A stretch of DNA of 64,000 nucleotides from a virus, in the IMG/VR virus record IMGVR_UViG_3300047160_005727, positions 64,001 through 128,000 of that record; one strand, given 5' to 3'. Both the position numbers and the translations under genes were made by a program. Below are positions 4,268 to 62,575 of the stretch, in pieces. The notes beneath the pieces were generated by a model. It saw only the letters and a program-made list of their open reading frames with translations, ran no database searches and was not told the origin of the DNA. Each line of letters begins with the position of its first letter. Position 1 is the stretch's first letter.

Positions 4268-5518
4268 ATGGCCTTTGAACCCTACACCAGAGTCAACTTC
4301 GGCCCGGTCAAGACCGGCCTGAAAACCATCGGTTACACGCTGGTAAAGGCCGGCAGGCCGATCGGCCCCCGTGTGACCCACGGGATCGAAGACCTGGGCG
4401 ACGGTCATTACGGGGCTGCGATCCTGTATCCCAGCCACTTCCGCGGCCAGCTCATCTGGGATACGGGCGGGCCTAGCCCGCAGACTATCGCCTTCGATGT
4501 CACGCCCGAGCAAGGTGCAGTCCAGATCGGGTCAGGCGCTGTCGTAAAGCGTGCTGCCCCGGTGTCTCGCCGGCCAGGGCCTCGAGTTCGGGTCAAGCAG
4601 CCACCCATCGTCTCGGCACACTCGCTGCTTGAGCCCTGCGAGACGCCGCCATCCGAGCCAGTTGTCGGCACGGTCGATACGATCCCTGTTACGCAGCGTA
4701 TTCGGACGGTCATCGTCAGCTCGAACCCGTGCCCGTCTGTTGCCTGGACAATGGTCGACTCCCAGGGCTGCCCGGTCGATCTGAGTTCGTGCTGTCCTGG
4801 CGCCCAGTGTCCAGTCCTGGGTACGCTCCGGGTCGGGCCTGACTGTCACAACTACTTCCTCGACTACTCGGCCAGTGCGTCCGACCCCGTGGCCGGGCTG
4901 ATGGTTGCCGATATCGATCCCGTGGCCCTGGGTGGGCCTGGGATCTACGTTGCTGAGATGGGCGTCTTCGATGCCGAGGGGACGTGTGTCGCCATCTCGA
5001 ACCGGTTCTTCCTGGTTGTCGAGAAGGGGCTCTTCGGTAACTTCCAGGCCAAGGGGCCACCTACCATCGCCGAGATCCGGCTGGAGCTGCGGGATAGCTC
5101 TCCCCTGGAAAGCGACCTGCTCGATGACTCGGTGGCCTGGGACAACTCCGAGATCGCGGCGGCACTGGTCAGTGCTGTCGACTACTGGAACGAGTCCTTG
5201 CCGCCGATCCCGCCCTATTACACCACCCAGAACTTCCCGTTCCGGTACTGGTGGAAGCAGGCGGCCAAGGCCATGCTCTTCCGGGTGGCTGCCGAATGGC
5301 ACCGCCGCAACCAAGTCGCCTATTCGGCCGGCGGCGTTTCGTTCGATGATCACGGCATGAAGGCCCAGCAGTATGACCAGGCAGCTGACAGCATCTGGGC
5401 CGAGTACAAGCAGTTCGTCAAGGAGCGGAAGATCTCGAACAACCTGGAGGCCGGCTGGGGCGAACTTGGCTCCGACTACGGCCGTATTTCTTATCCTGCC
5501 GGGGGCTACTGGTGGTAA
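4268..5518 (+). CDS. Putative head-tail adaptor/neck protein with N-terminal extension
   Basis: The helical C-terminal domain (PTIAEIRLELRD...DYWNESLPPI...YSAGGVSFDD) has the look of a connector protein. It lies upstream of the sheath, with SD ACGGAGG. Confidence 0.55.
   Translation: MAFEPYTRVNFGPVKTGLKTIGYTLVKAGRPIGPRVTHGIEDLGDGHYGAAILYPSHFRGQLIWDTGGPSPQTIAFDVTPEQGAVQIGSGAVVKRAAPVSRRPGPRVRVKQPPIVSAHSLLEPCETPPSEPVVGTVDTIPVTQRIRTVIVSSNPCPSVAWTMVDSQGCPVDLSSCCPGAQCPVLGTLRVGPDCHNYFLDYSASASDPVAGLMVADIDPVALGGPGIYVAEMGVFDAEGTCVAISNRFFLVVEKGLFGNFQAKGPPTIAEIRLELRDSSPLESDLLDDSVAWDNSEIAAALVSAVDYWNESLPPIPPYYTTQNFPFRYWWKQAAKAMLFRVAAEWHRRNQVAYSAGGVSFDDHGMKAQQYDQAADSIWAEYKQFVKERKISNNLEAGWGELGSDYGRISYPAGGYWW
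4688..4702. promoter_or_regulatory. 15-bp palindromic site, copy 1 (GTTACGCAGCGTATT)
   Basis: One of six RWTACGC-N-GCGTAWY copies; lies inside a CDS. Confidence 0.55.
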
Positions 5519-6423
5519 CGGACCTGACCAACTTCTATGACCGGGGGCCAGTCTTCAAGCGGCTGCGCATCGACCACATGGTGGCGGGCCAGAGCCGGCT
5601 GAGCTGGGAGATGGCACCCTGGTTCTGCGATCCGCTGCCCTGGGAGTTCTTGCCTCAGATCTCCGATACAGGCGTCGACACGTCAGTTTGGCGCGATCTT
5701 ACCGGCTGGCTGCCCAACTGGTTCACGATCATCGTCGGGCCGGTCCTGGAGGGGGGTCGCAACCTGACGACCAATTTCCGGGTTCTGTTGCGTACGCCGG
5801 CCGGGGAATACGCCTCGGAGCCTCAAAATGTCTTCGGCACATTACCCAGCAAGGGCTGGGTCCGGGCTCGTGTCATTGTCAAGAAAGAGCGGCTGCGGTT
5901 TCGTACGGCCACCGTCGTCAAGGGCTGGCTGCTCAAGCGGATGCGCACCGGCACGACGCCCGATCCGACTGATCCGCGTACCGCCGTCACCAACTATCTG
6001 ACTGGGGAGATCATCAAGACGGTTGATCCGGCCACGGTTGGTACCGAATACTTCGGCGGGTTCTATATGCCGGTGCCTTATGATCTGGATGCCGAGCCTA
6101 CCGGGCTTTACGAGCATCGCGATGAGCTGCAAGGGCGTGGCACCATCGATGATGACTCACTGGTCAGGCAGGCCCGCATCATCCATGACCCGCCGGTAGC
6201 TCACTGGGATGCCTTCGTGGCCGATCAGTCCGACCTGCGGTTTTACATTCACCGCGTAAGGCATCTTGCCGAGATCGCTTCCGTTCCGTTGGTGTCCCAG
6301 GCCGAGTTGCGGCTGGCACCATTCACCGATGTCATCTACACTGTGGAGGTTCCATTAACTCGTGAACAGTTCCGAGACCCCTGCGCCGCCCACCCCGAGC
6401 CCTACAAAGCCCGAGCGAGGTAA
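5512..6423 (+). CDS. Putative head-closure/neck protein
   Basis: 303 aa, between the adaptor and tail-terminator candidates, with a beta-rich C-terminus. Confidence 0.45.
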   Translation: MVTDLTNFYDRGPVFKRLRIDHMVAGQSRLSWEMAPWFCDPLPWEFLPQISDTGVDTSVWRDLTGWLPNWFTIIVGPVLEGGRNLTTNFRVLLRTPAGEYASEPQNVFGTLPSKGWVRARVIVKKERLRFRTATVVKGWLLKRMRTGTTPDPTDPRTAVTNYLTGEIIKTVDPATVGTEYFGGFYMPVPYDLDAEPTGLYEHRDELQGRGTIDDDSLVRQARIIHDPPVAHWDAFVADQSDLRFYIHRVRHLAEIASVPLVSQAELRLAPFTDVIYTVEVPLTREQFRDPCAAHPEPYKARAR

Positions 6424-6530
6424 GCGCATGTTGCCGCAAATGACTCCCCAGGACATGATGGACTATGAGCCGGACCCAGAACAGATCAACGTGATCCTGG
6501 GCCGACCCGCAGGCAGGGAAGCCAAAAGCA

Positions 6531-7220
6531 ATGGACGAGTACCCTTCCAACGGCGGTCCTGAGTTACGGGTCGAGCACTACTCGAACCCGTGCTCTTTCG
6601 GGCTTACGCCGATCCTGATGACCGGCTTCCTGCTTCAGTGGCTGGGCGATCACTTCTCGCGCCGCCAGAACGTCGAGCATCCAGAGCTGCGTGACATTCT
6701 CTGGAGAGCTAACACCAGAAATGGTATCCTGATCGCGAGCATTACCGACTGGGATCCCAAGGCGGTTGAGAAACGGCCCGGGATCATCATCAAGCGAAAC
6801 GCGTGGACGGCCGAGCGTCTTGCCATCGACGACCGGCTAACGCCCACTCCTGATGGCGATGAGCACTATTGCACTTTAATGCGTGGTTCTCACACCATCT
6901 TCTGTTTGGCTGGCGAGGGCGGTGAGGTCGAGATCCTCGGTGCCGAAGTGTTCCGGGAACTGCTGGGGTTCAGCTCCCTCATTCGACGCACGCTGAACCT
7001 GAACCGTTTTGGCGTCTCGGAATTAGGCCCCGTCAATGAGCTTCAAGAGGCGACGGAGAACTACGCCGTTCCGATCACCGTCGCGTACGCTTCCAGCTTG
7101 GCATGGACTCTTGAGCAGGATGTGCCCAAGCTGAAGCGGATAATGCTATCGGCGAACATATTTTCGTCAATGGATACTGGCGGCCGGCTTTGCGGGGTTT
7201 GCACCCCCGGAACCGGATAA
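6531..7220 (+). CDS. Putative tail terminator/completion protein
   Basis: 229 aa directly before the sheath; RPGIIIKR...YAVPITVAY pattern. Confidence 0.5.
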   Translation: MDEYPSNGGPELRVEHYSNPCSFGLTPILMTGFLLQWLGDHFSRRQNVEHPELRDILWRANTRNGILIASITDWDPKAVEKRPGIIIKRNAWTAERLAIDDRLTPTPDGDEHYCTLMRGSHTIFCLAGEGGEVEILGAEVFRELLGFSSLIRRTLNLNRFGVSELGPVNELQEATENYAVPITVAYASSLAWTLEQDVPKLKRIMLSANIFSSMDTGGRLCGVCTPGTG

Positions 7221-7268
7221 CAATGGACTGGACACAACCGTTCGACTGGCATGGAGGCACCGATAGCA

Positions 7269-10031
7269 ATGGCTTACATTCTGCCGCAAGTACTCGTGTT
7301 CCAGGAGTTCGATCTTGTCCCGATCGCCCTGCCGGACACGCTGCGGGCACACATTTCTGGAGCACATGCGTTCATGCTCCGGTATTCGGAGCCTAACGAG
7401 AAGCTCCTGGCCTACCTGGGCATGTATGATCCGCTCAATGATGCCATCAGCGAATGGCCCCAGCGGCCACCGGGTGGGATCGTCGATGCCAGCTACACCA
7501 AGGTTTACATCGACAACGCCAACCTTCAGTACTATCAGCGGCTTGTCCCTTCTCCTGCCGATCCTACTACCGCCGTGACGCCGGTCGGCAACAACAAGAT
7601 CCGCAGTGCTGACCAGGAGTACGGCTATGCGGCTAACGGCGTCAACTACCCACGCTTCCCTGAGCTGGGTGACCGTGATGTGCAGGTAGGTGATCGGGTG
7701 CACATCCGTGGTGTGGTCGGGACTGCAAACTATGACCTCGATACCTATGTCATGGGGATCGAGGCCGACCCGACCGGAGCATCCGTGGCCGAGCCGGAAT
7801 TCCCGGACAGCAACGGGAAGCAGCAGTCGGCTAGCGCGGTCGTCACCCCGACCGGTGTCACCAACTCGATCCTGCTCACGGTCGACAACAGCAACTACAG
7901 CGCCCTGGCCGATGGTGCGCTGGATGACACTTACAACATCGAAGTCACCCAGGCTTCGAGCGGCGGCAAGCTGGAGACCGCCCAGCTGCGGATCACCACG
8001 ACCAGTGGTAATGACGATGATCTGGTCGTGGTTCCGGCCGCGGCAGGTACGAGCTTCTCGGTGGGCAACCGTGGGTTGAAGCTGACGTTCGCTCACAGCA
8101 ATACGACTGATGATCTGCTGACCACCATGTCCTTCTCCGTGGAGGTCAAGTGTGCTTATGCGCCGGTCACTGCGGATAGCAGTACCAGCACCTATCGGGG
8201 CACCAAGTCGACGACCTACATCATCGAGTTCACCAGGGGCGGGCTGGTCAGCACTGACCATACGACCTGCCCGGCATTCACTGTCACCACCACACTGGGC
8301 GTCGATAGCAGTACCGCGCTGCCGGTTACTGATCTTACCTTGATCTATCCGGTCGGTACCCAGGGCGTGAAGGTCAAGTTCGGTGGCGCCGCGGACGGCA
8401 TCCGCAAGGGTGACAAGTTCACTATCGAAGTCGTCGCCGCACAGGATGGCCGCATCGCTGTACTTGTCCTGGCTCATAACCTGCCGGCAGACCTGGTGAC
8501 TCCGACACCAGTGGCCGATCTCGATCTGACTCTTTACGTGCAGCGGAACATCATGGTCGACGAGTCGGCCGACGGCTTCGTCAACTGGGAGCAGAACGAG
8601 ACCCAGATCCTCATTCACGGCGGGATCGTCGCTTATGACGAGACGTTCACCCTCGGCGGCGAGCCACGTCCCTTGCAGGTCATGTCCGGTGAGGTCTACG
8701 TTGAGTACCGAGCCTGGCTTTCCGATCTGGCCTCGAGTGTGGGCACGATCTACGACGTCGGCACCATCGACGACATGATCAGCGGACCGCTATCGCCCGA
8801 CAACCCGCTCAAGTGGGGCGTCTTCAAGGCGCTCTCCAACTCCAACGGCTCGGAGGTGAAGTTCACATCTGTGGCCAACCCCAATGAGATCGAGAGCTGG
8901 GTCTCGGTCCTGGAGCTGCTGATCGGCCGCAACGATGTGTACAACTTGGTGCCGCTGACCTTTGACCGTGAAGTCCTGGATCTGTACGCGGCCCATGTCA
9001 ACGATGAGTCGTCACCCGAGCAGGCACGCTGGCGCGCGGTTTGGGGGGCTATACAGGCCAAGACCACCGAAGCTGTCGTCTCCGATACGACTTCGACGAA
9101 TGGCCTGGTTGTCATGGCCGTCATCAACCCGAACAACGAAGCCTTTGAGACCTCGACCGAGAATACGCTGCTAACCGTGCCGGCCGGCAACTCTGCCTTC
9201 CTTGACAACCAGGTTCGGCCTGGCGACGTGGTGCGAACCAACTACGGTATCGACACCAGCGGCAACGAGACCTATGTCGAGTACGTCATCGACCAGGTGA
9301 TCAACGAGAACGCCGTTCTACTCATGTCTGGACCGCCGGACCCCATTACTACACCCCAGAAGATCGAAGTCTGGCGGTACATGAACAAGGACGAGATCGC
9401 CCAGGACCTGGCCATGCAGGCCGGCAGCTTTGCCAGCCGCCGGGTCAAGATGGTCTGGCCGGACGTGGTTGGCTCGGGCGGTGTACTCCAGGAAGGGTTT
9501 TACCTTGCAGCTGCCCTGGCTGGCTTGCGATCAGGTATCGTGCCGCAGCAGGGCATGACCAACCTCCAGGTCGCCGGCTTTGACGACCTTTCCCGCACCA
9601 CGAACTTCTTCGGCGGTGCCCAGCTCAACACCATGGCCGGTGCCGGTACCTGGATCGTGACCCAAGCTCCGGACGGGACGGTCTATACCCGGCACGCTCT
9701 GACTACGGACAACACCGACGTCAATTCAAGCGAAGAGATGATCACGACGAACCTGGACTCGATCTCTTATGTGTTCGCCAACCGGCTAGCACCATACATC
9801 GGCCTGATGAACGTCACCGACTCGGGCCTGATGATCCTGAGTACCGAGATCGACTCGTGCATCAACTTCCTGAAGTCCAACGGCTACGTAGCCCGGCTCG
9901 GCGGTCAGCTCGTCGATGCCACGGTCGTCAGCCTCCAACCCCACGCCATACTCCCGGACCGGGTGGTGTGCGTCATCGATGTCACGCTGCCTTATCCTCT
10001 TAACAACCTCGAAATTCACCTGGTCGTCTGA
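7269..10031 (+). CDS. Tail sheath protein
   Basis: ~920 aa starting MAYILPQVLVFQEF. The C-terminus (NLDSISY...YIG..NVT...DRVVCVIDVTLPYPLNNLEIHLVV) is typical of contractile sheaths. SD GGAGG at 7253. Confidence 0.85.
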   Translation: MAYILPQVLVFQEFDLVPIALPDTLRAHISGAHAFMLRYSEPNEKLLAYLGMYDPLNDAISEWPQRPPGGIVDASYTKVYIDNANLQYYQRLVPSPADPTTAVTPVGNNKIRSADQEYGYAANGVNYPRFPELGDRDVQVGDRVHIRGVVGTANYDLDTYVMGIEADPTGASVAEPEFPDSNGKQQSASAVVTPTGVTNSILLTVDNSNYSALADGALDDTYNIEVTQASSGGKLETAQLRITTTSGNDDDLVVVPAAAGTSFSVGNRGLKLTFAHSNTTDDLLTTMSFSVEVKCAYAPVTADSSTSTYRGTKSTTYIIEFTRGGLVSTDHTTCPAFTVTTTLGVDSSTALPVTDLTLIYPVGTQGVKVKFGGAADGIRKGDKFTIEVVAAQDGRIAVLVLAHNLPADLVTPTPVADLDLTLYVQRNIMVDESADGFVNWEQNETQILIHGGIVAYDETFTLGGEPRPLQVMSGEVYVEYRAWLSDLASSVGTIYDVGTIDDMISGPLSPDNPLKWGVFKALSNSNGSEVKFTSVANPNEIESWVSVLELLIGRNDVYNLVPLTFDREVLDLYAAHVNDESSPEQARWRAVWGAIQAKTTEAVVSDTTSTNGLVVMAVINPNNEAFETSTENTLLTVPAGNSAFLDNQVRPGDVVRTNYGIDTSGNETYVEYVIDQVINENAVLLMSGPPDPITTPQKIEVWRYMNKDEIAQDLAMQAGSFASRRVKMVWPDVVGSGGVLQEGFYLAAALAGLRSGIVPQQGMTNLQVAGFDDLSRTTNFFGGAQLNTMAGAGTWIVTQAPDGTVYTRHALTTDNTDVNSSEEMITTNLDSISYVFANRLAPYIGLMNVTDSGLMILSTEIDSCINFLKSNGYVARLGGQLVDATVVSLQPHAILPDRVVCVIDVTLPYPLNNLEIHLVV

Positions 10032-10050
10032 CACGGAGGTTTAGCCAGTC

Positions 10051-10578
10051 ATGGCCGACATTTTCAATAAAACCTCGAACCGGCTGGGTGGGGCATGGTC
10101 CGCCGATGGCGCGGCTGTATCCTTCTCCGGCCAGGCTGCCGGTCTGCTCGGCGTCGGGATGATCGTGCAGCAGGTCAACGTCGGGTACCAGCAGCAAGTC
10201 ACCCGGCTCTACGAGATCGGCTCGAACATGACCTACTACGTGGCCGGTCGTGTTCAGGGCAACATGACGATCGGCCGGGTCGTCGGGCCAGGTGTGGTCA
10301 TGTCGGCGTTCTACACCGCGTTCGGCGATGTCTGCAACGCCGCCAACAACACACTGAACCTGTATATCGGAACTGGCTGCCGCTCCTCGGGAGGGGTGAC
10401 TGCGCAGTTCACGAACGCGAGGTTCACCATCAGTTACGCTGTGCTTATCAGCGTCGGCATCTCGGTCGGCGCCATGGACATGGTGATCAACGAACAACTC
10501 CAGCTAATGTTCATCAACATGGCGAGCAGTGGAGGCGCCACCAACTCTCTGGGCAACGTCCTCGGCAATGTCGCATAG
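10051..10578 (+). CDS. Tail tube protein
   Basis: 175 aa directly after the sheath; tube-like motif QQVNVGYQQQVTRLYEIGS..YYVAGR.QG.MTIGRVVG. Confidence 0.75.
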   Translation: MADIFNKTSNRLGGAWSADGAAVSFSGQAAGLLGVGMIVQQVNVGYQQQVTRLYEIGSNMTYYVAGRVQGNMTIGRVVGPGVVMSAFYTAFGDVCNAANNTLNLYIGTGCRSSGGVTAQFTNARFTISYAVLISVGISVGAMDMVINEQLQLMFINMASSGGATNSLGNVLGNVA

Positions 10579-10647
10579 TGTTCGCGGCGGCCCACTGGGC
10601 CGCTAGGGCCCTGGTGCCCGTAACCTCACCGCAAGGTGGTCTGCACG

Positions 10648-13350
10648 ATGCATACGAACAACCAGGGGCGTCGGCCTTTGTTCGGGCCGACGTCCCAGAC
10701 AGCATACGGCTTGGACTGGCAGCGTAAAGCCAAACCCAGCGCAGCTTCAGCCCCGATCGATGACGCCCAGGGGCACGCTTACAACGTCACCAGGAACCTC
10801 GGGATCGGCCCTGAGATCTACCGCGGCAGGGTCGTCGATGTCATCGCCTATGCTCACTGCTACCGCGTGCTGCTTGAACGCAACGGCGGCGTGATCCTCT
10901 GCATGGCCCTGGTATCCGGCGGTCTGCTGCCGATCGGCCCCCATCCGATCACCTCGATCGGGCCGGGCTCCGAGGTCTACGTGATCCGTCCCCGGCCCGG
11001 CAACTTCGGGATCATCCTGGGCGGCTTCCCGTCCGCCATGACCGATCCCTCGGTCGCCCTGTCAGACTTCATCCATCAGAGCAGCCGCTGCGGTCTGCGG
11101 GTCGACAAGACCCACTCGGCGCCGTTCGGCACCAGTGATCACGGCGGTATCGGCGACTTCTCCAATGGCCGGCCGTTCGACGGCATGTCGATGGGCGAAT
11201 GGGGTGCTATCTGCGAGACCGGGCTGCGCCAGTTCCTGGATCCGTTCATGGTGCAGTGTGCCGTCGATGAAGCGACCGGCGTCTTCGTGTTCTACCACGA
11301 CCAGCTCTTGCGTTTGGCTGGCTATAACACCCAGATGTTTTCGGGTGGGCATGAGGTCGAGATCTACGTCGACCAGCGCGAGGTCCATCACTACGACGGC
11401 TTCACTCCCTACCCGTGGGAGCAGTGCGGTGCTCTCACTCCCAGCGAGGACCCATACACCGAGAACTCGCCGAAGGATACCCAGATCGACAAGCCCTACT
11501 ACGGTGCCTGGGAGCCCCAGGAAGACGACCAGATGCCGTTCCACCGCTCGCTCGGGTTTCGGGGCTACCTGGGCCAGGGCGGCAAGCGGATGGTCATGGC
11601 GCCGCCCGGACAAGGCCCCAATGTCTACGGTCAGCCAGGAGCTTACGCGGCACTGTTCGAGGAGAACATCGGGCTCGATGGTCGTTACTCGCTGCGCTCA
11701 TCCAAGGGGCTGCACATCGTCAAGTATGCTGCTATTCCGCCTGTGAAGCGGATGAAGCGGCCCGAGGATGCAGGGGGCGACAACCCTGATAACTACAAGT
11801 TTGCCGGTGTCACCGGCAGCGGTCCGGATCACAAGGTTACCGGTCAGATCAAGCCCGGCAGCGATAACCCCCATCTCCAGCAAGCTGCCGGCATCATGGA
11901 CGTGCATTCCTGGGTCTTCAACTGGTTGGGCGCGCATCCGTTCCACTACCACGAGAAGGACTGGCTGATCAAGGAAGAGACCGACACCTTCGCCCAGAAG
12001 GTCGAGGCTCCGATCAGCTATGGCGATCTGGCTCAGCAGTTCTACCTGAAGCGCCCCGATCCGGTGACCCAGAAGATCGACCAGCGTTACGGCGACGTGA
12101 ACTACTTCCCGAACCACTCGTACATCAGCATGAACGACGATGGGGGCATCTCCATCGGCGACGGCTACGGCGCCGAGATCCGCATGTGCGGCGGTCACAT
12201 CTTCCTCACGGCGCCTGGTGACGTCTGGGCCAAACCTGGGCGAAACTTCAACGTCCTGGCCGGCTACGACGCCTGCTTCCGAGCCAATAACTCGATGGAT
12301 CTGTCGGCCAGTAAGAACGATCTGCGACTGAAGGCCGAGCACAACCTGCATCTGCTCGGCGGCAACGACGGCAAGCAAGGCGGGGTGCTCATCGAGTGCA
12401 AGGCCCCCGGATCTTATGGCTACCAGAATGCCGTCGGCGAAGACGTACGGATGGGCGGCTTCCAGGTGAAGGTGGATCAGGGTGATGCCGTTATCTGGGC
12501 GACCAACATCTACCTCCGGACTGGCGGTGGTGATGTAAAGCCAGGCTTCATCACACTCGATGCCGCTGCCGGCCAGCAGCCGATCACACTCTACGCCAAT
12601 ACGATCAGCAACTATGTCAGCGGGTTCATTGCGGACAACTTCGGCACCAACGGGAACATCACGACCAGTCACGTCTGGCAGGCCGGGTCCAACATCATCG
12701 GCTCGGGCTGCTATGTGAACGGGTTCGGCATCTTCGACAACAACGTGCTCGTCAAGGGATGGGTCGAGGTCGTGGCTGGCCACTTCGCCAGCGAGTTGGC
12801 CGACTCCTTTGACGGCAAGGTTGCTTCGATGCAGGGCCTGAGCCTGTTTCTTGCCTACCAGGATCTGGCCAAGGCCGAGGCGGATGCAGCCACGGGCGTC
12901 ACTGATGCTGCGCAGTACTGGCAGAAGCTCTTTCCCAACTATCTGTACGCGGACAAAGGGGCAGGGAACGACGCTGTCATCACGGCAGTCCACTTCACTT
13001 TCCGCAACCCGAACCAGTACAAGACCAACAACTTCAAGCTCTTTGAAGATCGCTGGCAGATGATGGCGAGGCTCGCCGGCCAGACGCTGTCCAAGTGGGA
13101 AGAGAAGTCGATCACCGGTGGCTCCGAGGAGACCATGCCTTACCCCGGCAAGAAGCCGTGGAAGGATGATAGCACCTTCATGACGATGGACCTCCAGCTC
13201 TATGACCCCAAACAAGGGGCCTCGATCCCTCGAACCAAGTCAGCAGGGACGGACACGTCGCCGAGAGTGACCGAGGATAAGTACGAGCAGCCTCAGTTCA
13301 AGGACCCGCAACCACAGCCGCCTTCCAGTGGATACATGGTTGTCATTTGA
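10648..13350 (+). CDS. Baseplate central spike (gp5/VgrG-like)
   Basis: N-terminal OB-fold-like segment (GRVVDVIAYAHCYRV) and beta-helix-like repeats (SYISMNDDGGISIGDGYGAEIRMCGGHIFLTAPGDV...). Confidence 0.6.
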   Translation: MHTNNQGRRPLFGPTSQTAYGLDWQRKAKPSAASAPIDDAQGHAYNVTRNLGIGPEIYRGRVVDVIAYAHCYRVLLERNGGVILCMALVSGGLLPIGPHPITSIGPGSEVYVIRPRPGNFGIILGGFPSAMTDPSVALSDFIHQSSRCGLRVDKTHSAPFGTSDHGGIGDFSNGRPFDGMSMGEWGAICETGLRQFLDPFMVQCAVDEATGVFVFYHDQLLRLAGYNTQMFSGGHEVEIYVDQREVHHYDGFTPYPWEQCGALTPSEDPYTENSPKDTQIDKPYYGAWEPQEDDQMPFHRSLGFRGYLGQGGKRMVMAPPGQGPNVYGQPGAYAALFEENIGLDGRYSLRSSKGLHIVKYAAIPPVKRMKRPEDAGGDNPDNYKFAGVTGSGPDHKVTGQIKPGSDNPHLQQAAGIMDVHSWVFNWLGAHPFHYHEKDWLIKEETDTFAQKVEAPISYGDLAQQFYLKRPDPVTQKIDQRYGDVNYFPNHSYISMNDDGGISIGDGYGAEIRMCGGHIFLTAPGDVWAKPGRNFNVLAGYDACFRANNSMDLSASKNDLRLKAEHNLHLLGGNDGKQGGVLIECKAPGSYGYQNAVGEDVRMGGFQVKVDQGDAVIWATNIYLRTGGGDVKPGFITLDAAAGQQPITLYANTISNYVSGFIADNFGTNGNITTSHVWQAGSNIIGSGCYVNGFGIFDNNVLVKGWVEVVAGHFASELADSFDGKVASMQGLSLFLAYQDLAKAEADAATGVTDAAQYWQKLFPNYLYADKGAGNDAVITAVHFTFRNPNQYKTNNFKLFEDRWQMMARLAGQTLSKWEEKSITGGSEETMPYPGKKPWKDDSTFMTMDLQLYDPKQGASIPRTKSAGTDTSPRVTEDKYEQPQFKDPQPQPPSSGYMVVI

Positions 13351-13360
13351 GGATCAAACG

Positions 13361-14638
13361 ATGGCTGAAAAGAAGAAACTCGATCTGCGCAGCCGGCCCA
13401 AGACACCACCGCCGGCAGCAGCCCCGGTGACTGTTCAGCGAGATGCCTTGGGGCCTGATGTCTACAAGCCGGGGCAAGTGCTGGATCCGCGGTACCTGAC
13501 TCCTTTCGAGCGACAGCAGCTGGAGTCGATCGGCTGGGAAGAGGGCTCGCCGGTGCCGGGCAATGCTGCCGAACTGATCAAGGCGGTCCAAGAGGAAGCG
13601 ACTGCCGAAGGCGTCTTGCCGGTGCCGGCCGATACACCGCCGCTGACAATGCCCGACCCCATCGACATCAGCAGGTTACCTGCCGCGAAACAAAAGGAGC
13701 TGTACGCGGCGATCAAGAAGGCCGGCCAGTACCAGAAGCAGCTTGCCGAACAGGGCGCCGCTGTTGCTAACCTGAACCCCGACATCGCCGAGGCCGTACG
13801 GGTAGCCGACGATGTCGCGCGAGCCAACAACCCGCCGCGTGGCATCACTGTCGTCGACGACCGGCCGTTCCGAGCACCCCAGGCATCTACTGCTACTGCT
13901 ACTGCTACAGCTCAGAAACCCCGGCCGAAGGGCTGGCCCAAGCCTGAGCCCCCGGCGCCTGAGCCCCCACCAGAGCCGATACCACAGCCGGGTCCGGCAG
14001 GTTGGAAGCGACCCGCACCGCCACCATTCGAGCCGCCGCCGAGCGAGCCGCCATCTAGCCCACCGATCGGCGATCTCTCGGACGCTGGTGGGGTTGGGAT
14101 CACTCACTGCCCGCATTGCAGCTGGGACCTGAAGCAGGATGATCCCAGCGATCCAACTGATGCCGATAAGCGGGTCTATCTGATGGCCGCCCTGGCCGGG
14201 CCTGGCCATCGTTTCGCCCGCGAGACTTCACTGCTGGGTGGGACGGTCAAAGTTGGCTACCGTGAGCTGACCGGCGGCGAGGCCGACGCCGCCTTGACCC
14301 AGATCGCCGAGGACGTTCGCAGGAACCGGGTCGTCGGCGACGGCGAATGGTGGCAGCGGCTGATGGACTACCGCATGACCCAGGCCATCGAATACATCGA
14401 CATCAATGGCGTGGGTCGCGTGTACGAGGGTGTCGAACTGGACGAGATCGAGTCGGATGACGGTAACCTGACGGCGTTCCCGGCGCTGGTAGGACACCTG
14501 CTAACTAATGTCCTGCACAGTGAGAGTCTGCGGCGGGCGGTCGGTCAGGGATACATGCGGTTTCAGCGGTTATGCGAGAAGCTCGAAGCCAATGCGGACT
14601 CAGAGTCTTTCTGGAACGGGATCGGTTCGCCTCGCTGA
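13361..14638 (+). CDS. Putative tail assembly chaperone (long, Pro-rich linker, CPHC)
   Basis: Two genes upstream of the tape measure. Chaperone-like C-terminal domain (VKVGYRELTGGEAD...) ending ESFWNGIGSPR. Confidence 0.5.
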   Translation: MAEKKKLDLRSRPKTPPPAAAPVTVQRDALGPDVYKPGQVLDPRYLTPFERQQLESIGWEEGSPVPGNAAELIKAVQEEATAEGVLPVPADTPPLTMPDPIDISRLPAAKQKELYAAIKKAGQYQKQLAEQGAAVANLNPDIAEAVRVADDVARANNPPRGITVVDDRPFRAPQASTATATATAQKPRPKGWPKPEPPAPEPPPEPIPQPGPAGWKRPAPPPFEPPPSEPPSSPPIGDLSDAGGVGITHCPHCSWDLKQDDPSDPTDADKRVYLMAALAGPGHRFARETSLLGGTVKVGYRELTGGEADAALTQIAEDVRRNRVVGDGEWWQRLMDYRMTQAIEYIDINGVGRVYEGVELDEIESDDGNLTAFPALVGHLLTNVLHSESLRRAVGQGYMRFQRLCEKLEANADSESFWNGIGSPR

Positions 14639-15066
14639 TGGTGCAGGCTGCCGCAGCTGGGGTCGTAGACTTCAGCCGGGCCGATCCCGACGATCCCAAG
14701 TGGTGGCGGCACTTGCGTTTGGTCCTCGATCAACTGGAGCGGAACCACCTCAAGGAATATCATCGGCTGTACAATGAGCGGGTCATATCGGTGCTGTCCC
14801 GCGCCGATCTGGCCAGAGAGTCAGGGGAAAAGTTACTGGAGGAGTCTGACTCACGGATCGACAATATCGCCAAGATCATGTTTCCGTGGGCCGATCTGGA
14901 CCGTACAACGATACGGCAGGAGCAAGCCAAGCAATTACGCGAGCTTTGGGAGTCCTGGTTCGGCAAGCTGGATGATCCTGATACGCAACGGCGGATCCAG
15001 GTTACGGCAGACTGGCTGAGGAACACCGCTGCAAGGCGGAAGACCCCAGGGACGGGGAGGCGTTGA
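14638..15066 (+). CDS. Putative tail assembly chaperone second part (gpT-like)
   Basis: In the -1 frame relative to the upstream gene, open from at least 14572, with TGATG overlaps at both ends; immediately before the tape measure. Confidence 0.5.
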   Translation: MVQAAAAGVVDFSRADPDDPKWWRHLRLVLDQLERNHLKEYHRLYNERVISVLSRADLARESGEKLLEESDSRIDNIAKIMFPWADLDRTTIRQEQAKQLRELWESWFGKLDDPDTQRRIQVTADWLRNTAARRKTPGTGRR

Positions 15067-19558: not shown

Positions 19559-20353
19559 GTGACAGTTTTGATCAACCATGTGCGAACACTCCTGTTGAAC
19601 ATGCCAGCGTCGTCCATGACCCCGATGGGGGAGTACGTACCGCTGGAGTTCAACACAGTGGCGGTGCCGTCGGCTGTGCAGCGCGCTCGTGACATCCTGT
19701 TCGGACCACGACCGGATGCCACGATGCTCGACTACCGACTTCGCCAGTATATGACCATGCTGCATTCGACCGAGCTGGTCGAGTTCGTCACTGCCCAGGA
19801 TCCACGGATCACCTATGCACCTGGTAGTCGGGCCATGTCGGACTTCGATCCCGCAGCGGTCGTCACGCCAGTTGAAAACAGCATCGAGCTGTTCATCACC
19901 GGCAACTTGCCCAGGACTGCTGACGGTCGGATGTCATGCCTGTGGCAAGTCAAGGCCATGGTTGCCGGCTCGACGTCGGTGTCGGTAACCCGTCGCAGTG
20001 CACCACCTGGCACATCCATCTACCCCATCACCTACACCGGCGGCCTGTCGAACGAGTTCCCGCTGACCGGCTCGCCGCTCCTGGCCAGCTTCCAGGACGA
20101 AGGCGTTGTCGATGGGATCACCTGGAATGTCAGCTGCCTGGCAATGCCTCTTCGAGATCCAGGCCAGGTTGCTGCCGACCTGGGAGCTACAGGCGCGAAT
20201 ATCATGCCCTTTCTTTTCGGTATTGGCGCGCAGGAGCCGTACCGCACCTGGCAGAACCTTTGGGCGTCGAACCAGCCGCTGCCGTACCGGCTGGGGGCAG
20301 CACTACTGGCCGTAGCGGCACGGACCGATGAAGCTCGTTTGAGGATAAACTGA
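19559..20353 (+). CDS. Putative baseplate protein
   Basis: 264 aa in the tail operon; begins MTVLINHVRTLLLN. Confidence 0.45.
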   Translation: MTVLINHVRTLLLNMPASSMTPMGEYVPLEFNTVAVPSAVQRARDILFGPRPDATMLDYRLRQYMTMLHSTELVEFVTAQDPRITYAPGSRAMSDFDPAAVVTPVENSIELFITGNLPRTADGRMSCLWQVKAMVAGSTSVSVTRRSAPPGTSIYPITYTGGLSNEFPLTGSPLLASFQDEGVVDGITWNVSCLAMPLRDPGQVAADLGATGANIMPFLFGIGAQEPYRTWQNLWASNQPLPYRLGAALLAVAARTDEARLRIN

Positions 20354-22016: not shown

Positions 22017-22031
22017 GTTACGCGGCGTATC
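22017..22031. promoter_or_regulatory. 15-bp palindromic site, copy 2 (GTTACGCGGCGTATC), abutting the sigma-factor RBS
   Basis: Intergenic, directly before SD GGAGG and ATG 22041; identical to the copy at 62561. Confidence 0.65.
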
Positions 22032-22040: not shown

Positions 22041-22832
22041 ATGCCCAGCACTTTCAAGCCAGTCAAGATCGATGACTTCTCCAGTCCGGGTAACCGGCTC
22101 GAACCCAAGTTCGCGCCGGCTTTCCATACCTGGTCGGCCGATCCCAGCCCGGCCAACTCCGACCAGTTCCTGAAAGCCATCGATCCGATCGTCCAGGAAG
22201 GGCTGAACGTCTATGGGGGACGCAACGCCAACCCGATGATGCGGAGCCGGGCCCGCCGGATCGCCCTCGATGCCGCCACCAAGTACGATCCCAGCAAGGC
22301 CAGCCTGAAGACCCACCTGATGGCCCATCTTCAGGGCCTGCGTCGCTACGGCGCGCAGCAGAACCAGGTGATCCATGTTCCCGAGGCCGTGGCCCTCGAT
22401 CAGCATCACCTGGGCGAAGCCGAGGCCGAGCTGAGCGATCAGCTGGGTCGTGATCCCTCTGACGCCGAGCTAGCCGATCATATGGGGCTCTCCCGCCGGC
22501 GCATCGCCCACATCCGTGGCTACCGTCCAGCGGTACCCGAGGGGCGGTTGGCCTCCCTGTCTGATGAAGATGAAGAAGGGGGTGCCGGAGGCGGGTTCGA
22601 GCCGGCCGTGGAAGGCCCGGACCGGTCTATGCTTCGTGCCCAGTTCCTTTATCATGACCTTGACCCGCACGACCAGGTGATCCTGGAGTACGGCATGGGT
22701 TTGAACGGGTCACCCAAGCTGCCGGCCGCCCAGATCGCCCGACGGCTGCGGATCTCGCCGGGTGCTGTCAGCCAGCGGGCAGCGCGCATCCAGCAGATGC
22801 TCGATGAGTTCGAGGACACCAACGTGCTGTGA
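22041..22832 (+). CDS. Phage RNA polymerase sigma factor (sigma-70 family, FliA/WhiG-like)
   Basis: Region 2 (ALDAATKYDPSKASLKTHL), region 3 (LGRDPSDAELADHMG) and region 4 HTH (AAQIARRLRISPGAVSQR). Confidence 0.85.
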   Translation: MPSTFKPVKIDDFSSPGNRLEPKFAPAFHTWSADPSPANSDQFLKAIDPIVQEGLNVYGGRNANPMMRSRARRIALDAATKYDPSKASLKTHLMAHLQGLRRYGAQQNQVIHVPEAVALDQHHLGEAEAELSDQLGRDPSDAELADHMGLSRRRIAHIRGYRPAVPEGRLASLSDEDEEGGAGGGFEPAVEGPDRSMLRAQFLYHDLDPHDQVILEYGMGLNGSPKLPAAQIARRLRISPGAVSQRAARIQQMLDEFEDTNVL

Positions 22833-27778: not shown

Positions 27779-27805
27779 CGAACATTCAGCAAGGATGCAA
27801 CGCAC

Positions 27806-28402: not shown

Positions 28403-28419
28403 GCCCAAGGAGGGGTCTT

Positions 28420-35016: not shown

Positions 35017-35780
35017 TGAGGATCATCCATCCGGAATATCGCAACGAGCATCAGAACACGAACTACCCGTTCGCGGACACGGCCACCTTGCTCAGCCGCG
35101 ACAAGATCGCCTTGTCCCAGGGCATGTTCATCGATGCTTCGATCTTCCCGATCGGTGGCGGGCCACGGCCATACATCTCGTCGCTTCAGGTCGGCAACCG
35201 GCTCGTCACGATCTGGATCGGCGATACCTCGAACAGCCAGCTCGCCGCGGGCTCGTTCGATCCGCTGGCACCGCCCGACATGATCGGCCTGGTTGACGTG
35301 TACGGCCGGCCCGCTGGGCTGTTCGTGACCGATCCCATCCAGCTGGCGGCCGCCCAGTCCTGGTCTTCGGGTACGCACACGTTCGACATCGGGACCACCG
35401 AGTTCGCCGCCAGCTGCACGATCTCCACGCCGGAGCCGGGCGTGCGCGGCCTGATCGCTGCGCAAGGGCTTCTGCTCACTGGCGACGCCTGGCTCGTCGG
35501 CGAAGACGGCGTGGTGCTCAGCGTCGACCCAGACGATGGCTCCAACATCGTGGTCGACGTGGTGGGTGATCCGCTCTACGCGCGCCGGCAGTGTGCACCG
35601 GCGGGCCTGTTCAACACCCCGCGGTTCATCAAGACGATCAACGGCGTGCTGCCTGATGCCGAGGGCAACTTCCAGTTTTCAGTCGCTACGCTCACCGCCA
35701 GTGATACGATCCTGCGCATTATTCCTGAGCCACCCGATACGCTGCGTATTAGCCTGGTGGGTAAGTCGGTTCAAGGTTGA
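35016..35780 (+). CDS. Virion protein, paralog 4
   Basis: EYRNEHQNTNYPF; IKTINGVLPDAEGNF. Confidence 0.65.
   Translation: MRIIHPEYRNEHQNTNYPFADTATLLSRDKIALSQGMFIDASIFPIGGGPRPYISSLQVGNRLVTIWIGDTSNSQLAAGSFDPLAPPDMIGLVDVYGRPAGLFVTDPIQLAAAQSWSSGTHTFDIGTTEFAASCTISTPEPGVRGLIAAQGLLLTGDAWLVGEDGVVLSVDPDDGSNIVVDVVGDPLYARRQCAPAGLFNTPRFIKTINGVLPDAEGNFQFSVATLTASDTILRIIPEPPDTLRISLVGKSVQG
35736..35750. promoter_or_regulatory. 15-bp palindromic site, copy 3 (GATACGCTGCGTATT)
   Basis: Matches RWTACGC-N-GCGTAWY; 40 nt before ATG 35790. Confidence 0.55.
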
Positions 35781-40337: not shown

Positions 40338-40645
40338 TCGCCAGCAATACGCTGCGTAACATTATCACGATCGAGAACAGCACGATCGACGCCCTGGTCG
40401 TCAACGTGGCGTTCCAGCGTGAGTTTCCCTTCCTGGCTGGCCTGGTTCAGCCCAAGAAGACCAGTCGCTGCGGGCGTTGCCGCAAGAAGCAGCGGGCAAC
40501 CCTGACCGAATACCGGAATTTCAAGAACGCCGTGGCGTCCATGATCCCCCAGGACAAGATACGCTTCAAGCAATTCATGGGCTGCAAACAGGTTAGGGTA
40601 GTTCACGTCAACCCCGCCAACAAGGTCGTCGACCGGACTTTCTAG
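40334..40645 (+). CDS. Small basic CxxC protein
   Basis: 103 aa; RCGRCRKK; SD GGAGG. Confidence 0.65.
   Translation: MIASNTLRNIITIENSTIDALVVNVAFQREFPFLAGLVQPKKTSRCGRCRKKQRATLTEYRNFKNAVASMIPQDKIRFKQFMGCKQVRVVHVNPANKVVDRTF
40346..40360. promoter_or_regulatory. 15-bp palindromic site, copy 4 (AATACGCTGCGTAAC)
   Basis: Exact reverse complement of copy 1; 12 nt after ATG 40334. Confidence 0.6.
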
Positions 40646-52892: not shown

Positions 52893-53663
52893 TTGGCCAC
52901 GAAGTCCATAGCCGAGGTTGTTACGCCGCGTATCCCCGGGCCGATCAAGGTAAACGATGCCGGGGCTCACGGACCGTTTGCTTTTGTCAGAGGCATGCAC
53001 CGGCTGATGTTTGACGAAGACTCGTTCGTCATCGTGCTGCACGGGGCGTTCAACGCGTTCGGGTTGATCGGGCCCGAGCACAACGGGATCAGCATCGTCT
53101 GCGAGAACAACAGCCGGGAAGTCATCATGACCCACCACCGCGCTCCGTCGGGAGGTGGGAAAGTCACCGATGATCAGCGCCGCGAGTACGAGCGGATCTG
53201 TGGTATGAACCAAGACGAGTTCAAGGAGTTCGTCAACAGTCATCCCAAGGTGCAATACAAGATCATGCTTCCCAAACTACGGCCGATCGTCAAACCGAAG
53301 CTAGGCTTCCAGTCTGCCGACTTCGCCGCTACCAAGTTCGCCACGGCGACAGACAAGCGACTGTTCATCGAGGACCTGATCCAGTTCTTTTGCAACCATT
53401 GTGAACGTGATCAGTTCACCCGCCGTATCTACGACGGGTTGTACCTGCATCTCGGACACATCGCCCACTACAACCTGCACCAGTTCTACAACACGTGGTT
53501 CGAGGAACCGGTCATGCGCGTCCAGTTCCTGGAGCATCACGAGAAGTACCCGGTACCTGGCGACTGGCGTGACGTCGCTGACGCATTCCAAGCGTGGATC
53601 ATGGGCAAGGAAGGCCAGGCAGTCCTCAAACACTATCGAAAGGAAGCAGGGCATGAGTCGTAG
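52893..53663 (+). CDS. Hypothetical two-domain protein
   Basis: TTG start with SD AAGGAGG; C-terminal GHIAHYN..QFY..WF motif. Confidence 0.7.
   Translation: MATKSIAEVVTPRIPGPIKVNDAGAHGPFAFVRGMHRLMFDEDSFVIVLHGAFNAFGLIGPEHNGISIVCENNSREVIMTHHRAPSGGGKVTDDQRREYERICGMNQDEFKEFVNSHPKVQYKIMLPKLRPIVKPKLGFQSADFAATKFATATDKRLFIEDLIQFFCNHCERDQFTRRIYDGLYLHLGHIAHYNLHQFYNTWFEEPVMRVQFLEHHEKYPVPGDWRDVADAFQAWIMGKEGQAVLKHYRKEAGHES
52920..52934. promoter_or_regulatory. 15-bp palindromic site, copy 5 (GTTACGCCGCGTATC)
   Basis: 27 nt after start 52893. Confidence 0.6.
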
Positions 53664-62278: not shown

Positions 62279-62288
62279 GAGCATTAAC

Positions 62289-62558
62289 ATGAGCGGTCCG
62301 TTCAACTGGAGTAGTTTCCAACAAGTCCACCCTACCCGCGCCGAGGTCCAGCGCGCATCCGAGGTGGGAGAAGACGAAGACGACCTCGACGACATCGAAG
62401 AAGTGGAAGATGACGATGACTTCGATGACGATGATGATGATGATGACGAACTTGACGACGATCTTGATGACGACGACGATGACGACATCGACGATGACGA
62501 AGACGACGAAGACGACGAGCCGGCCGACATCGAGGATGCGCTGGAAGAGGTCGTCTGA
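62289..62558 (+). CDS. Small, extremely acidic (poly-Asp) protein
   Basis: 89 aa, about 50 of them D/E; SD AGGAG. Confidence 0.75.
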   Translation: MSGPFNWSSFQQVHPTRAEVQRASEVGEDEDDLDDIEEVEDDDDFDDDDDDDDELDDDLDDDDDDDIDDDEDDEDDEPADIEDALEEVV

Positions 62559-62560
62559 CC

Positions 62561-62575
62561 GTTACGCGGCGTATC
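62561..62575. promoter_or_regulatory. 15-bp palindromic site, copy 6 (GTTACGCGGCGTATC)
   Basis: Intergenic, just before SD GGAGG and ATG 62589; identical to copy 2. Confidence 0.65.

What the first reader, a model, noticed from the sequence alone, without database searches (positions are those of the whole stretch)
4688..62575. Six dispersed copies of a 15-bp palindrome RWTACGC-N-GCGTAWY: an unrecognised regulon or genome-organising site
Seen at 4688, 22017, 35736, 40346, 52920 and 62561. Copies 2 and 6 are identical, and copy 4 is the exact reverse complement of copy 1. A rough hand estimate for the 10-base core at ~62% GC gives under 0.1 chance copies per 64 kb. Four copies lie inside CDSs, often using T-ending codons that are less common here (GTT, CGT, ATT). 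Five are within ~55 nt of a start codon, and two abut an SD, including that of the sigma factor. Inference: a site for a dimeric DNA-binding protein, either an operator or a matS/parS-like organising site.
Basis: partly seen in the sequence, partly recalled or inferred. Interest (0 to 1): 0.8.

Follow-up and report, generated by a model that had tools for sequence, protein, structure and literature searches.

The report
Evenly spaced palindrome array in phage
A large uncultured phage that carries its own RNA polymerase writes one strict 17-base palindrome about every 12-16 kb along its genome; it is most likely the docking site of an unidentified paired DNA-binding protein, an ordinary-looking kind of phage repeat whose function nobody has yet worked out.

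Summary
TACGC-N-GCGTA occurs 6 times in the window and 12 times in the 141-kb contig. Chance gives 0.02-0.2, and a codon-shuffled control gives 0.33. It is by far the most over-represented palindrome in the genome.

The full logo is YGW-TACGC-N-GCGTA-WCR, and no other conserved element sits at a fixed distance. The motif is all-or-none: one-mismatch copies occur only at chance level.

Three relatives at about 72% DNA identity carry 6, 14 and 10 copies. More distant relatives carry none. Half or more of the sites sit at orthologous positions, against an 8-9% background. These include the sites ahead of the sigma-factor gene and ahead of the RNA-polymerase operon.

Spacing is more even than chance (P about 0.001). 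In one neighbourhood the site has moved between genomes but has not been lost.

The RNA hairpin is negligible, so the motif is most likely read as duplex DNA by a dimer. I found no binder: the phage has no ParB, MatP, integrase or Cro/CI-type protein.

My best reading is a genome-wide docking array that acts by segment on transcription. It is not a classical operator regulon.

The closest published parallels are the Cluster O mycobacteriophage 17-bp repeats, KorB operators and stoperators. This scan has already noted similar arrays in other phages.

The parts
4688..4702 (.). Palindrome copy 1 (GTTACGC-A-GCGTATT). It lies inside CDS 4268-5518, at 34% of the gene.
   Evidence: The codons are GTT ACG CAG CGT ATT, encoding V-T-Q-R-I. 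The site is intact at the orthologous place in G001. In G002 and G004 the V-T-x-R peptide is kept with other codons and there is no site.
22017..22031 (.). Palindrome copy 2. It is intergenic, 2 nt after the stop of CDS 20353-22014 and directly before the SD and ATG of the sigma-factor gene.
   Evidence: The site is intact at the same place in G001 and G002. In G004 it has decayed by one base, GCGTA to GCATA.
22041..22832 (+). Phage sigma factor (263 aa, regions 3 and 4). It is the only DNA-sequence-specificity protein I found conserved in all four genomes.
   Evidence: Pfam Sigma70_r3 and r4; PHROG 351; 80-85% identity in G001, G002 and G004, and 38% in G003.
35736..35750 (.). Palindrome copy 3. 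It lies in the last 45 nt of CDS 35016-35780, 40 nt before the start at 35790.
   Evidence: The site is intact in G004. In G001 and G002 only the left half or less remains.
40346..40360 (.). Palindrome copy 4. It lies 12 nt into CDS 40334-40645 and just after the stop of CDS 39822-40337. It is specific to this genome.
   Evidence: The orthologous sequence in G001, G002 and G004 aligns but has no site.
52920..52934 (.). Palindrome copy 5. It lies 27 nt after a TTG start with a strong SD (52893), about 50 nt after a hairpin plus T-run.
   Evidence: A site lies at the equivalent place in G002 (187107) and G004 (58169), although the flanks do not align.
62561..62575 (.). Palindrome copy 6. It lies 2 nt after the stop of the + strand gene 62289-62558, at a convergent junction with the - strand gene 62725-64662.
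   Evidence: The site is intact in G002 and decayed by one base in G004. The downstream small ORF is not conserved. A strong hairpin lies about 80 nt downstream.

Best explanation
The copies are docking sites for one highly specific homodimeric DNA-binding protein. Each monomer reads a TACGC half-site plus the YGW flank, and the central base pair is not read. The protein is probably phage-encoded but is not yet identified.

Selection does not keep a set of promoter-proximal operators. It keeps an array of about one perfect site per 10-16 kb segment of the whole chromosome. A site is written just behind a stop codon where an intergenic gap exists. In long genes it is written into the coding sequence with rare codons.

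The bound protein is inferred to act over its segment. It could be a boundary or roadblock, or a nucleation or loading point. Its effect would be on transcription by the phage's own RNA polymerase along the long co-directional gene arrays. The segments that start with the polymerase operon and the sigma gene are among those marked.

Shown here: enrichment, strictness, conservation, spacing, polarity, and the lack of an RNA structure. Inferred: protein binding, a dimer, action at a distance, and a transcriptional output.
For: - Enrichment is 60-130 fold, and this is the top palindrome in the genome. It survives the codon-shuffle control.
- The logo is a 17-bp dyad with no other conserved position within +/-40 nt.
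- The motif is all-or-none in four genomes. Perfect copies number 12, 6, 14 and 10 against 0.1-0.2 expected. One-mismatch copies number 2, 1, 2 and 4 against 1.8-3.8 expected.
- The site is conserved at orthologous places: 6 of 11 in G002 and 5 of 8 in G001, against an 8-9% background.
- In the conserved Y-A-A-Y site, the only base inside the core that changes among four genomes is the central N.
- Only 25 CDS places could encode the motif by synonymous choice, and 8 of them do, using rare codons.
- Spacing is more even than random: G002 P=0.0003-0.003 and G000 P=0.0006-0.005.
- In one roughly 6-kb neighbourhood each genome has exactly one site, at three different positions.
- Deep in-CDS sites fall mostly in 4.7-5.7 kb genes.
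- Of 24 independent loci, 11-16 are intergenic or at a gene edge, against 10% non-coding DNA.
- The upstream flank is better kept than the downstream flank: 24/24 against 16/24, P=0.004.
- Sites head the RNA-polymerase operon and the sigma gene.
- The RNA hairpin is only -0.8 kcal/mol and no better than shuffles. There is no Rfam match.
Against: - No binding protein was found. ParB_N, MatP, integrase and Cro/CI-type HTH proteins are all absent from Pfam scans of 217 of my 227 gene calls in the complete relative. Two proteins under 55 aa, three under 420 aa that cross locus boundaries and five large ones were not scanned.
- The only other candidates are a wHTH protein and a second sigma factor confined to G002, and a 593-aa Bro-N protein seen only in G002 and G004.
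- The intergenic bias could simply reflect how few coding positions can carry the motif.
- Spacing is not significantly even in G001 and G004.
- The flank polarity is modest and may partly reflect overlapping TGA or TAA stop codons.
- No expression data exist for these uncultured phages.
Confidence: 0.5

Rival explanations
1. The palindrome is a transcription signal read by the phage RNA polymerase holoenzyme or an accessory factor. It would be either a middle or late promoter class or a sequence-specific termination or pause signal that punctuates the long operons.
For: - Strict conservation like T7 or T4-late promoters.
- Short intergenic location just ahead of SD and start in many loci, including the RNAP operon and the sigma gene.
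- Polarity relative to transcription.
- Operon-scale spacing.
- The only clear promoter class, GCTAAA-N16-GTCATAYA, has just 6 copies in 141 kb and sits in early or small-RNA regions, so other signals must exist.
- For termination: sites lie 1-14 nt after stop codons and at 3 of 4 independent convergent junctions.
Against: - Near-perfect dyad symmetry is not expected of a promoter.
- No -10 or -35-like position is conserved around it.
- Against a promoter: one copy is followed 14 nt later by an intrinsic terminator (G001 40094). Two copies face into the 3' ends of convergent genes with no conserved downstream ORF.
- Against a terminator: five or six loci lie deep inside genes and would truncate them, one of them conserved in four genomes. 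The hairpin is too weak to terminate. Most copies are followed within 5-30 nt by the next gene's start, with no room for a new promoter.
Confidence: 0.2
2. The copies form a classical operator regulon. A phage or host repressor or activator binds next to promoters of a defined gene set, as the first reader's 'regulon' option proposed.
For: The 17-bp dyad has the format of lambda-type operators. Several copies abut an SD or start codon, including that of sigma.
Against: - There is no gradation of site strength.
- No promoter elements lie nearby.
- The downstream genes have no common theme: MazG, sigma, unknown proteins and a glycosyltransferase interior.
- Some sites lie deep in long genes and at convergent junctions.
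- Even spacing and positional turnover point to a regional need rather than a gene-specific one.
- No matching regulator is encoded.
Confidence: 0.12
3. The copies are sites of a DNA transaction rather than of gene control. Possibilities are site-specific nicks as in T5-like phages, multiple replication or priming origins, recombination hot-spots that shuffle modules, or targets of a site-specific nuclease or modification enzyme.
For: - Enzyme-like all-or-none specificity.
- Even spacing.
- Several copies abut blocks of variable gene content, upstream of 23170 and downstream of 126563 and 139495.
- Cluster O repeats were reported to flank deletions (PMC4351075).
- The phage encodes an N6/N4 DNA methylase and a Rad50-like ATPase.
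Against: - No AT-rich unwinding element or iteron cluster lies beside the copies.
- Nick sites known to me are asymmetric and not under strong positive selection.
- The polarity and stop-codon proximity are unexplained by this reading.
- No data on DNA ends or modification are available.
Confidence: 0.1
4. The motif acts in the mRNA, as a small hairpin bound by a protein. It would serve translational control, processing or 3'-end protection between cistrons.
For: Placement 1-14 nt behind stop codons and just ahead of ribosome-binding sites, and polarity relative to transcription.
Against: - The stem is 4 bp with a 3-nt loop, at -0.8 kcal/mol and no better than shuffled sequence.
- The innermost C and G are invariant although they cannot pair across one base.
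- The W positions at +/-6 are not complementary more often than chance.
- There are no G-U type variants.
- Deep in-CDS copies and a copy in the sense strand of a minus-strand gene do not fit.
- There is no Rfam family.
Confidence: 0.03

Closest known systems
17-bp dyad repeats of Cluster O mycobacteriophages (TGTTCGG-NNN-CCGAACA; PMC4351075)
   Same: One strictly conserved 17-bp palindrome is dispersed over the whole phage genome. The mix of positions is similar: short intergenic gaps, the first codons of genes, and gene interiors (14, 10 and 10 of 34 in Corndog). There is no orientation signal in the central bases. The binder and function are unknown, and the authors also suggested a dimeric regulator.
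   Different: Density is about ten times lower here: one per 12-16 kb against more than 30 per genome in Cluster O (the roughly 70-kb genome size is from my own knowledge). The sequence and spacer differ (1 nt against 3 nt). The host phage is an unrelated jumbo-type myovirus with its own RNA polymerase and sigma factor. Spacing here is demonstrably even, and the sites are not concentrated in one arm.
KorB and its OB operators on IncP plasmid RK2 (PMC11790492)
   Same: The site is an odd-length palindrome with an unread central base (OB core TTTAGC-G-GCTAAA). Copies are perfect and dispersed around the replicon, some of them far from promoters. KorB acts over distances of kilobases on transcription.
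   Different: KorB is a ParB-family CTP clamp. No ParB_N domain is encoded in the complete relative or in this contig. No KorA-like partner site was seen. The replicon is a phage, not a plasmid. That RK2 has 12 OB sites is from my own knowledge.
Stoperators of mycobacteriophage L5 and Cluster A phages, and of Streptomyces phage R4 (PMC9283540, PMC10276819)
   Same: Many near-identical repressor sites are spread through the genome in short intergenic gaps, away from promoters. There is a relation to the direction of transcription. They block elongation rather than initiation.
   Different: Stoperators are asymmetric 13-mers bound by a monomer, about one per 2 kb, in temperate phages that use the host polymerase. 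Here the site is a symmetric dimer-type site at about one per 14 kb. No integrase is encoded, and the phage brings its own polymerase.
Start-associated sequences (SAS and ESAS) of Cluster K mycobacteriophages (PMC11373665)
   Same: A conserved short sequence is repeated just upstream of the start codons of a subset of genes, with an unexplained role.
   Different: SAS is asymmetric, lies 3-9 bp from the start codon and extends the ribosome-binding site. Here the distance to the start varies from 5 to more than 100 nt, and a third of the copies are not near any start.
matS/MatP and parS/ParB chromosome-organising sites
   Same: Short strict palindromes serve as specific landmarks. Copies inside genes are tolerated. 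The function depends on position on the chromosome rather than on the neighbouring gene.
   Different: Those sites are confined to one chromosomal region, whereas these span the whole genome at even intervals. No MatP or ParB homologue is encoded. Here there is a strong bias to gene ends.

Membership tests
ParB/KorB with parS/OB sites | A ParB_N (CTP-binding) domain protein encoded on the same replicon | tested here: not met
   A six-frame HMM search with PF02195 found no match at E<=0.01 in G000, G001 or the complete G002. The control genomes were positive.
ParB/KorB with parS/OB sites | A strict palindromic site of 13-16 bp in multiple perfect copies | tested here: met
   The 17-bp dyad has 12, 6, 14 and 10 perfect copies, and no excess of one-mismatch copies.
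matS/MatP | A MatP protein, and sites confined to one macrodomain | tested here: not met
   PF06303 is absent. The sites span the whole 226-kb genome.
Stoperators (Cluster A mycobacteriophage type) | An asymmetric site bound by a monomer and oriented with transcription | tested here: not met
   The core is a perfect dyad. Only a weak flank polarity is present.
Stoperators (Cluster A mycobacteriophage type) | A temperate phage with an immunity repressor and integrase | tested here: not met
   No Phage_integrase match in the complete relative. No repressor-type HTH in Pfam scans. Serine integrases were not searched separately.
Stoperators (Cluster A mycobacteriophage type) | Sites in short intergenic gaps away from promoters | tested here: met
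   Most intergenic copies lie 1-14 nt after a stop codon and 5-32 nt before the next start, with no promoter-like element.
Cluster O-type dispersed dyad repeats | One 17-bp dyad-symmetric sequence repeated throughout a phage genome, partly intergenic and partly in ORFs | tested here: met
   compared with the description in PMC4351075. The family is defined by description only, and its function is unknown.
Cluster O-type dispersed dyad repeats | High density (more than 30 copies per genome, as stated in PMC4351075) | tested here: not met
   There are 12 copies per 141 kb and 14 per 226 kb.
Phage-polymerase promoter (T7 or T4-late type) | An asymmetric signal at a fixed distance from the transcript start, always facing a downstream gene | tested here: inconclusive
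   There is no asymmetry in the core and no added conserved positions. Three loci face a terminator or a convergent gene. Transcript starts cannot be mapped with these tools.
Structured RNA element or intrinsic terminator | A stable hairpin, with a U-run for terminators | tested here: not met
   The hairpin is -0.8 kcal/mol and not better than shuffles. No T-run follows. There is no Rfam match.

The most novel reading that the evidence does not exclude
The phage uses a ParB-independent 'ruler' that keeps one perfect docking site per 10-16 kb segment and replaces a lost site nearby. Through it, a new kind of DNA-binding protein would divide the whole viral chromosome into separately controlled transcription or topological segments for the phage's own RNA polymerase. 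Together with the similar arrays this scan has noted in other phages, that would point to a widespread, undescribed layer of viral chromosome organisation.
Probability: 0.2. Interest if true: 0.8.

Novelty: new member of a known kind. Interest (0 to 1): 0.45.

Why it matters
Dispersed, strictly conserved palindromes have been described in a few phages and plasmids. Only KorB operators and stoperators have a known mechanism. The Cluster O repeats remain unexplained in the 2015 paper I read.

This case adds a clean example in a very different virus: a jumbo-type phage with its own two-gene RNA polymerase and sigma factor. It offers three useful properties:
- all-or-none site strictness;
- spacing that is measurably even;
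- a site that moves within a neighbourhood without being lost.

These properties argue that the unit under selection is a chromosome segment, not a gene. If the binding protein were found, it would show how a large virus controls or organises 200 kb of DNA without the ParB machinery.

By itself, with no binder and no culture, it is one more member of a recurring but unexplained class.

Tried and rejected
**Binder search**
- ParB_N, MatP and tyrosine integrase are absent.
- Pfam scans covered 217 of 227 gene calls of the complete relative, in three batches. Five large proteins, three under 420 aa that cross locus boundaries and two under 55 aa were not scanned.
- A 'CII-like' hit turned out to be a MazG pyrophosphatase.
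- The HTH_20 protein and a second sigma factor are confined to G002.
- A Bro-N protein is present in G002 and G004, but no other homologues were found for a co-occurrence test.
- ESM Atlas gave nothing for two conserved small proteins.
- Pfam found nothing in the genes downstream of sites or in early-region proteins.

**More relatives**
- Two IMG/VR pattern scans found only the four known genomes with repeated copies.
- A metagenome scan with a sigma profile found eight more distant relatives, none with the motif.
- G003 has no palindrome of its own that stands out.

**Other attempts**
- Host identification through a phage PEP-CTERM protein failed, so the motif could not be counted in a host genome.
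- An intrinsic-terminator scan was too noisy to use genome-wide.
- Phylogenetic profiling against G003 was uninformative, because only 40 proteins are detectably shared.
- Phage Arash was fetched only in part. At 31% identity it is too distant, and its sigma gene has no upstream gap.

**Readings considered and rejected**
- LacI-type operator: these have even-length centres.
- Cruciform: the arms are too short.
- Restriction-site avoidance: the motif is enriched, not avoided.
Full report
**What is there**

The 15-mer RWTACGC-N-GCGTAWY occurs at the six stated places and nowhere else in the window. The 10-base core occurs 6 times against 0.02 expected. Allowing one mismatch adds one copy against 1.35 expected.

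The window is bases 64001-128000 of a 141-kb IMG/VR phage contig, estimated 68% complete. The contig holds 12 copies. Among all 5-Nx-5 palindromes, this one is far ahead of the rest: 12 observed against 0.09 expected, with the next best at 3 copies. A third-order Markov model expects 0.2.

Shuffling synonymous codons within each gene gives 0.33 in-CDS copies (maximum 2 in 200 trials) against 8 observed.

I aligned 32 copies from three genomes. The logo is YGW-TACGC-N-GCGTA-WCR, and no other informative position lies within 40 nt on either side.

**The genome**

Nearly all genes lie on the + strand. The phage is a contractile-tailed virus, with tail sheath and baseplate hits. It encodes:
- a sigma factor at window 22041-22832;
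- a fused beta/beta'-N RNA-polymerase subunit at contig 26514-30983.

The nearest isolates are Vibrio phages D69, D148 and D181 and Salmonella phage Arash, at about 31% identity. In Arash the polymerase and sigma factor are found in virions (PMC10585845). No tyrosine integrase is present.

**Relatives**

A search with the sigma protein found G001 (103 kb), G002 (226 kb, complete) and the distant G003. A pattern scan added G004 (161 kb).

| Genome | Size | Copies of the motif | Source |
|---|---|---|---|
| G000 (this contig) | 141 kb | 12 | |
| G001 | 103 kb | 6 | |
| G002 | 226 kb, complete | 14 | |
| G004 | 161 kb | 10 | |
| G003 | 130 kb | 0 | |

G003 has no palindrome of its own that stands out. 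Eight more distant sigma-bearing metagenome contigs also lack the motif. No other IMG/VR contig carries it repeatedly.

The four genomes are syntenic at about 72% DNA identity. G004 runs across the ends of G002, so its 'provirus' label looks wrong and the genome is circularly permuted.

**Strictness**

In all four genomes perfect copies are in 50-100 fold excess, while one-mismatch copies are at chance level.

Two of G004's four one-mismatch copies are decayed orthologues. They sit ahead of sigma and at the convergent junction. Both have the same GCGTA-to-GCATA change and intact flanks. A single mismatch therefore seems to end selection on a site.

**Conservation**

- Of the G000 sites that can be placed in G002, 6 of 11 are intact.
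- In G001, 5 of 8 are intact.
- The background is 8-9%. This is the fraction of aligned 11-mers that keep the same ten positions.

Conserved loci include:
- the gap ahead of sigma;
- the gap ahead of the five-gene operon that ends with the polymerase subunit;
- a 16-19 nt gap between two genes at contig 42143;
- a site inside a glycosyltransferase-methyltransferase gene, intact in all four genomes.

In that last site the codons TAC GCN GCG TAT encode Y-A-A-Y. The only base inside the core that varies is the central N.

At window 4688 the peptide V-T-x-R is kept in G002 and G004 with common codons and no site. G000 and G001 spell the site with GTT, CGT and ATT. Selection is therefore on the DNA sequence.

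**Position**

I count 24 independent loci in the four genomes. Between 11 and 16 are intergenic or at a gene edge, while only 10% of the DNA is non-coding. Intergenic copies usually begin 1-14 nt after the upstream stop codon, even where the gap is long. They end 5-32 nt before the next start.

This bias is weaker evidence than it looks. Only 25 coding positions in the contig could carry the motif through synonymous choice, and 8 of them do.

Deep in-CDS copies fall mostly in genes of 4.7-5.7 kb. Three of four independent convergent junctions carry a copy. One copy follows an intrinsic terminator by about 6 nt, and another precedes one by 14 nt.

**Spacing**

Intervals are more even than random. 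Probabilities are for the coefficient of variation or the minimum gap, and they hold when positions are restricted to gene junctions.

| Genome | P (random spacing) | Result |
|---|---|---|
| G002 | 0.0003-0.003 | significant |
| G000 | 0.0006-0.005 | significant |
| G001 | 0.11-0.56 | not significant |
| G004 | 0.09-0.22 | not significant |

In one roughly 6-kb neighbourhood each genome has exactly one copy, at three different places. G004 has it at 7414. G002 has it at 135826, inside a 1883-aa gene. G000 and G001 have it in the next gene. This looks like replacement under a regional requirement.

**Polarity**

The core is symmetric and the central base shows no strand preference. The flank on the upstream side, relative to transcription, is better kept. 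Y at -8 is found in 24/24 loci against 16/24 for its mirror (P=0.004). G at -7 is found in 21/24 against 14/24. Overlapping TGA or TAA stop codons explain only part of this.

**RNA or DNA**

The possible hairpin is a 4-bp stem with a 3-nt loop, at -0.8 kcal/mol. The six window copies fold no better than shuffled sequence. The invariant inner C and G cannot pair. The W positions are not complementary. There is no Rfam match. Recognition as duplex DNA by a two-fold symmetric protein is the simplest reading.

**Other signals**

A separate, classical bipartite promoter, GCTAAA-N16-GTCATAYA, resembles sigma-28-type promoters. It occurs six times in the contig, in long gaps next to terminators and small-RNA genes. 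The palindrome is therefore not the phage's standard sigma-dependent promoter.

**The binder**

I could not name it. ParB_N, MatP and integrase searches were negative, with positive controls.

Pfam scans covered 217 of 227 gene calls of the complete relative. The ten left out are two proteins under 55 aa, three under 420 aa that cross locus boundaries, and five large ones. The scans gave only these candidates:
- the conserved sigma factor;
- a second sigma factor and a winged-helix protein, both confined to G002;
- a weak HARE-HTH hit;
- a 593-aa Bro-N protein, shared by G002 and G004 and placed behind a GTCATATA promoter.

No further homologues of the Bro-N protein exist in IMG/VR for a co-occurrence test. 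The host is unknown, so a host factor cannot be excluded.

**Reading**

Strict dyad symmetry, DNA-level selection and all-or-none sites point to docking of one very specific dimer. Even spacing, neighbourhood turnover, use of a third of all possible coding positions, and copies in the longest genes point to a need for one site per segment. They do not point to control of particular genes.

Proximity to stop codons, flank polarity, and copies ahead of the polymerase and sigma genes suggest the output concerns transcription along the co-directional arrays.

I therefore favour a genome-wide docking array that acts by segment, as a boundary, roadblock or nucleation point (0.5). The alternatives are:
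- a signal read by the polymerase itself (0.2);
- a classical operator regulon (0.12);
- a DNA-transaction site (0.1);
- an RNA element (0.03).

**Comparison with known systems**

The nearest published description is the 17-bp dyad repeat of Cluster O mycobacteriophages. It has the same three-way split of positions and an unknown function (PMC4351075).

KorB and its OB sites are the nearest system with a mechanism (PMC11790492), but the defining ParB domain is absent here. Stoperators share the intergenic, non-promoter placement (PMC9283540, PMC10276819). They are asymmetric, dense, and belong to temperate phages. Cluster K start-associated sequences are tied to start codons in a way these copies are not (PMC11373665).

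From memory only, phage phiC31 has 17-bp conserved inverted repeats in intergenic regions that are bound by its repressor. I could not retrieve that paper.

Earlier notes of this scan describe similar evenly spaced palindrome arrays in several other phage genomes. This is one more member of a recurring class, not a singular find.

Noticed in passing
window 40651-40678 and 41678-41705; also contig 32657, 33339, 34053 and 133902; probable weaker copy with -10 at window 38292: A classical bipartite promoter, GCTAAA-N16-GTCATAYA, resembles sigma-28-type promoters. It sits in long intergenic gaps, often just after terminators and ahead of small RNAs or small genes. It is conserved in G001 and G002. 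It is probably the promoter class of the phage sigma factor.
   Followed up: partly
window 4236-4242 (upstream of the gene at 4268), window 49011, and equivalents in G001 and G002: The heptamer TAGGATC is enriched in intergenic DNA. TAGGAT occurs 18 times against 2.8 expected in three genomes. It usually lies 12-40 nt upstream of a start codon. It could be a -10-like TAnnnT element or a second dispersed signal.
   Followed up: partly
window 62289-62558: An 89-aa protein is made almost wholly of Asp and Glu over its last 60 residues. It is encoded directly upstream of palindrome copy 6. It is a possible DNA mimic or chaperone, and it has no Pfam match.
   Followed up: no
window 40909-41604 (+) and contig 139465-140220 (-): Two phage proteins carry a signal peptide and a PEP-CTERM sorting motif. 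This suggests a host with an exosortase system. In the second protein the palindrome is written into the Arg-rich tail (I-R-R-V) after the PEP-CTERM helix.
   Followed up: partly
G002 (reverse-oriented) 205055-205924: A second sigma factor (regions 2 and 4, 289 aa) is present only in G002. It is inserted after the ribonucleotide reductase gene. G000 and G004 lack it at the same place.
   Followed up: partly
G004 whole record (L167-L175): The record is labelled 'provirus' but has no host flanks. It is collinear with G002 across G002's contig ends, so the genome is circularly permuted or terminally redundant.
   Followed up: partly
contig 12322-17946 (L177) and 7595-12325: Two giant multidomain proteins were seen. 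One combines LigD 3'-phosphoesterase, an SNF2-type helicase and an intein. The other contains a 2H phosphoesterase. Each carries one in-frame palindrome copy.
   Followed up: no
L223 and L230 (low-GC metagenome relatives), about 45-50 nt upstream of their sigma genes: An inverted repeat, CATCCG-N7-CGGATG, precedes the sigma gene in two distant relatives that lack the TACGC palindrome.
   Followed up: no
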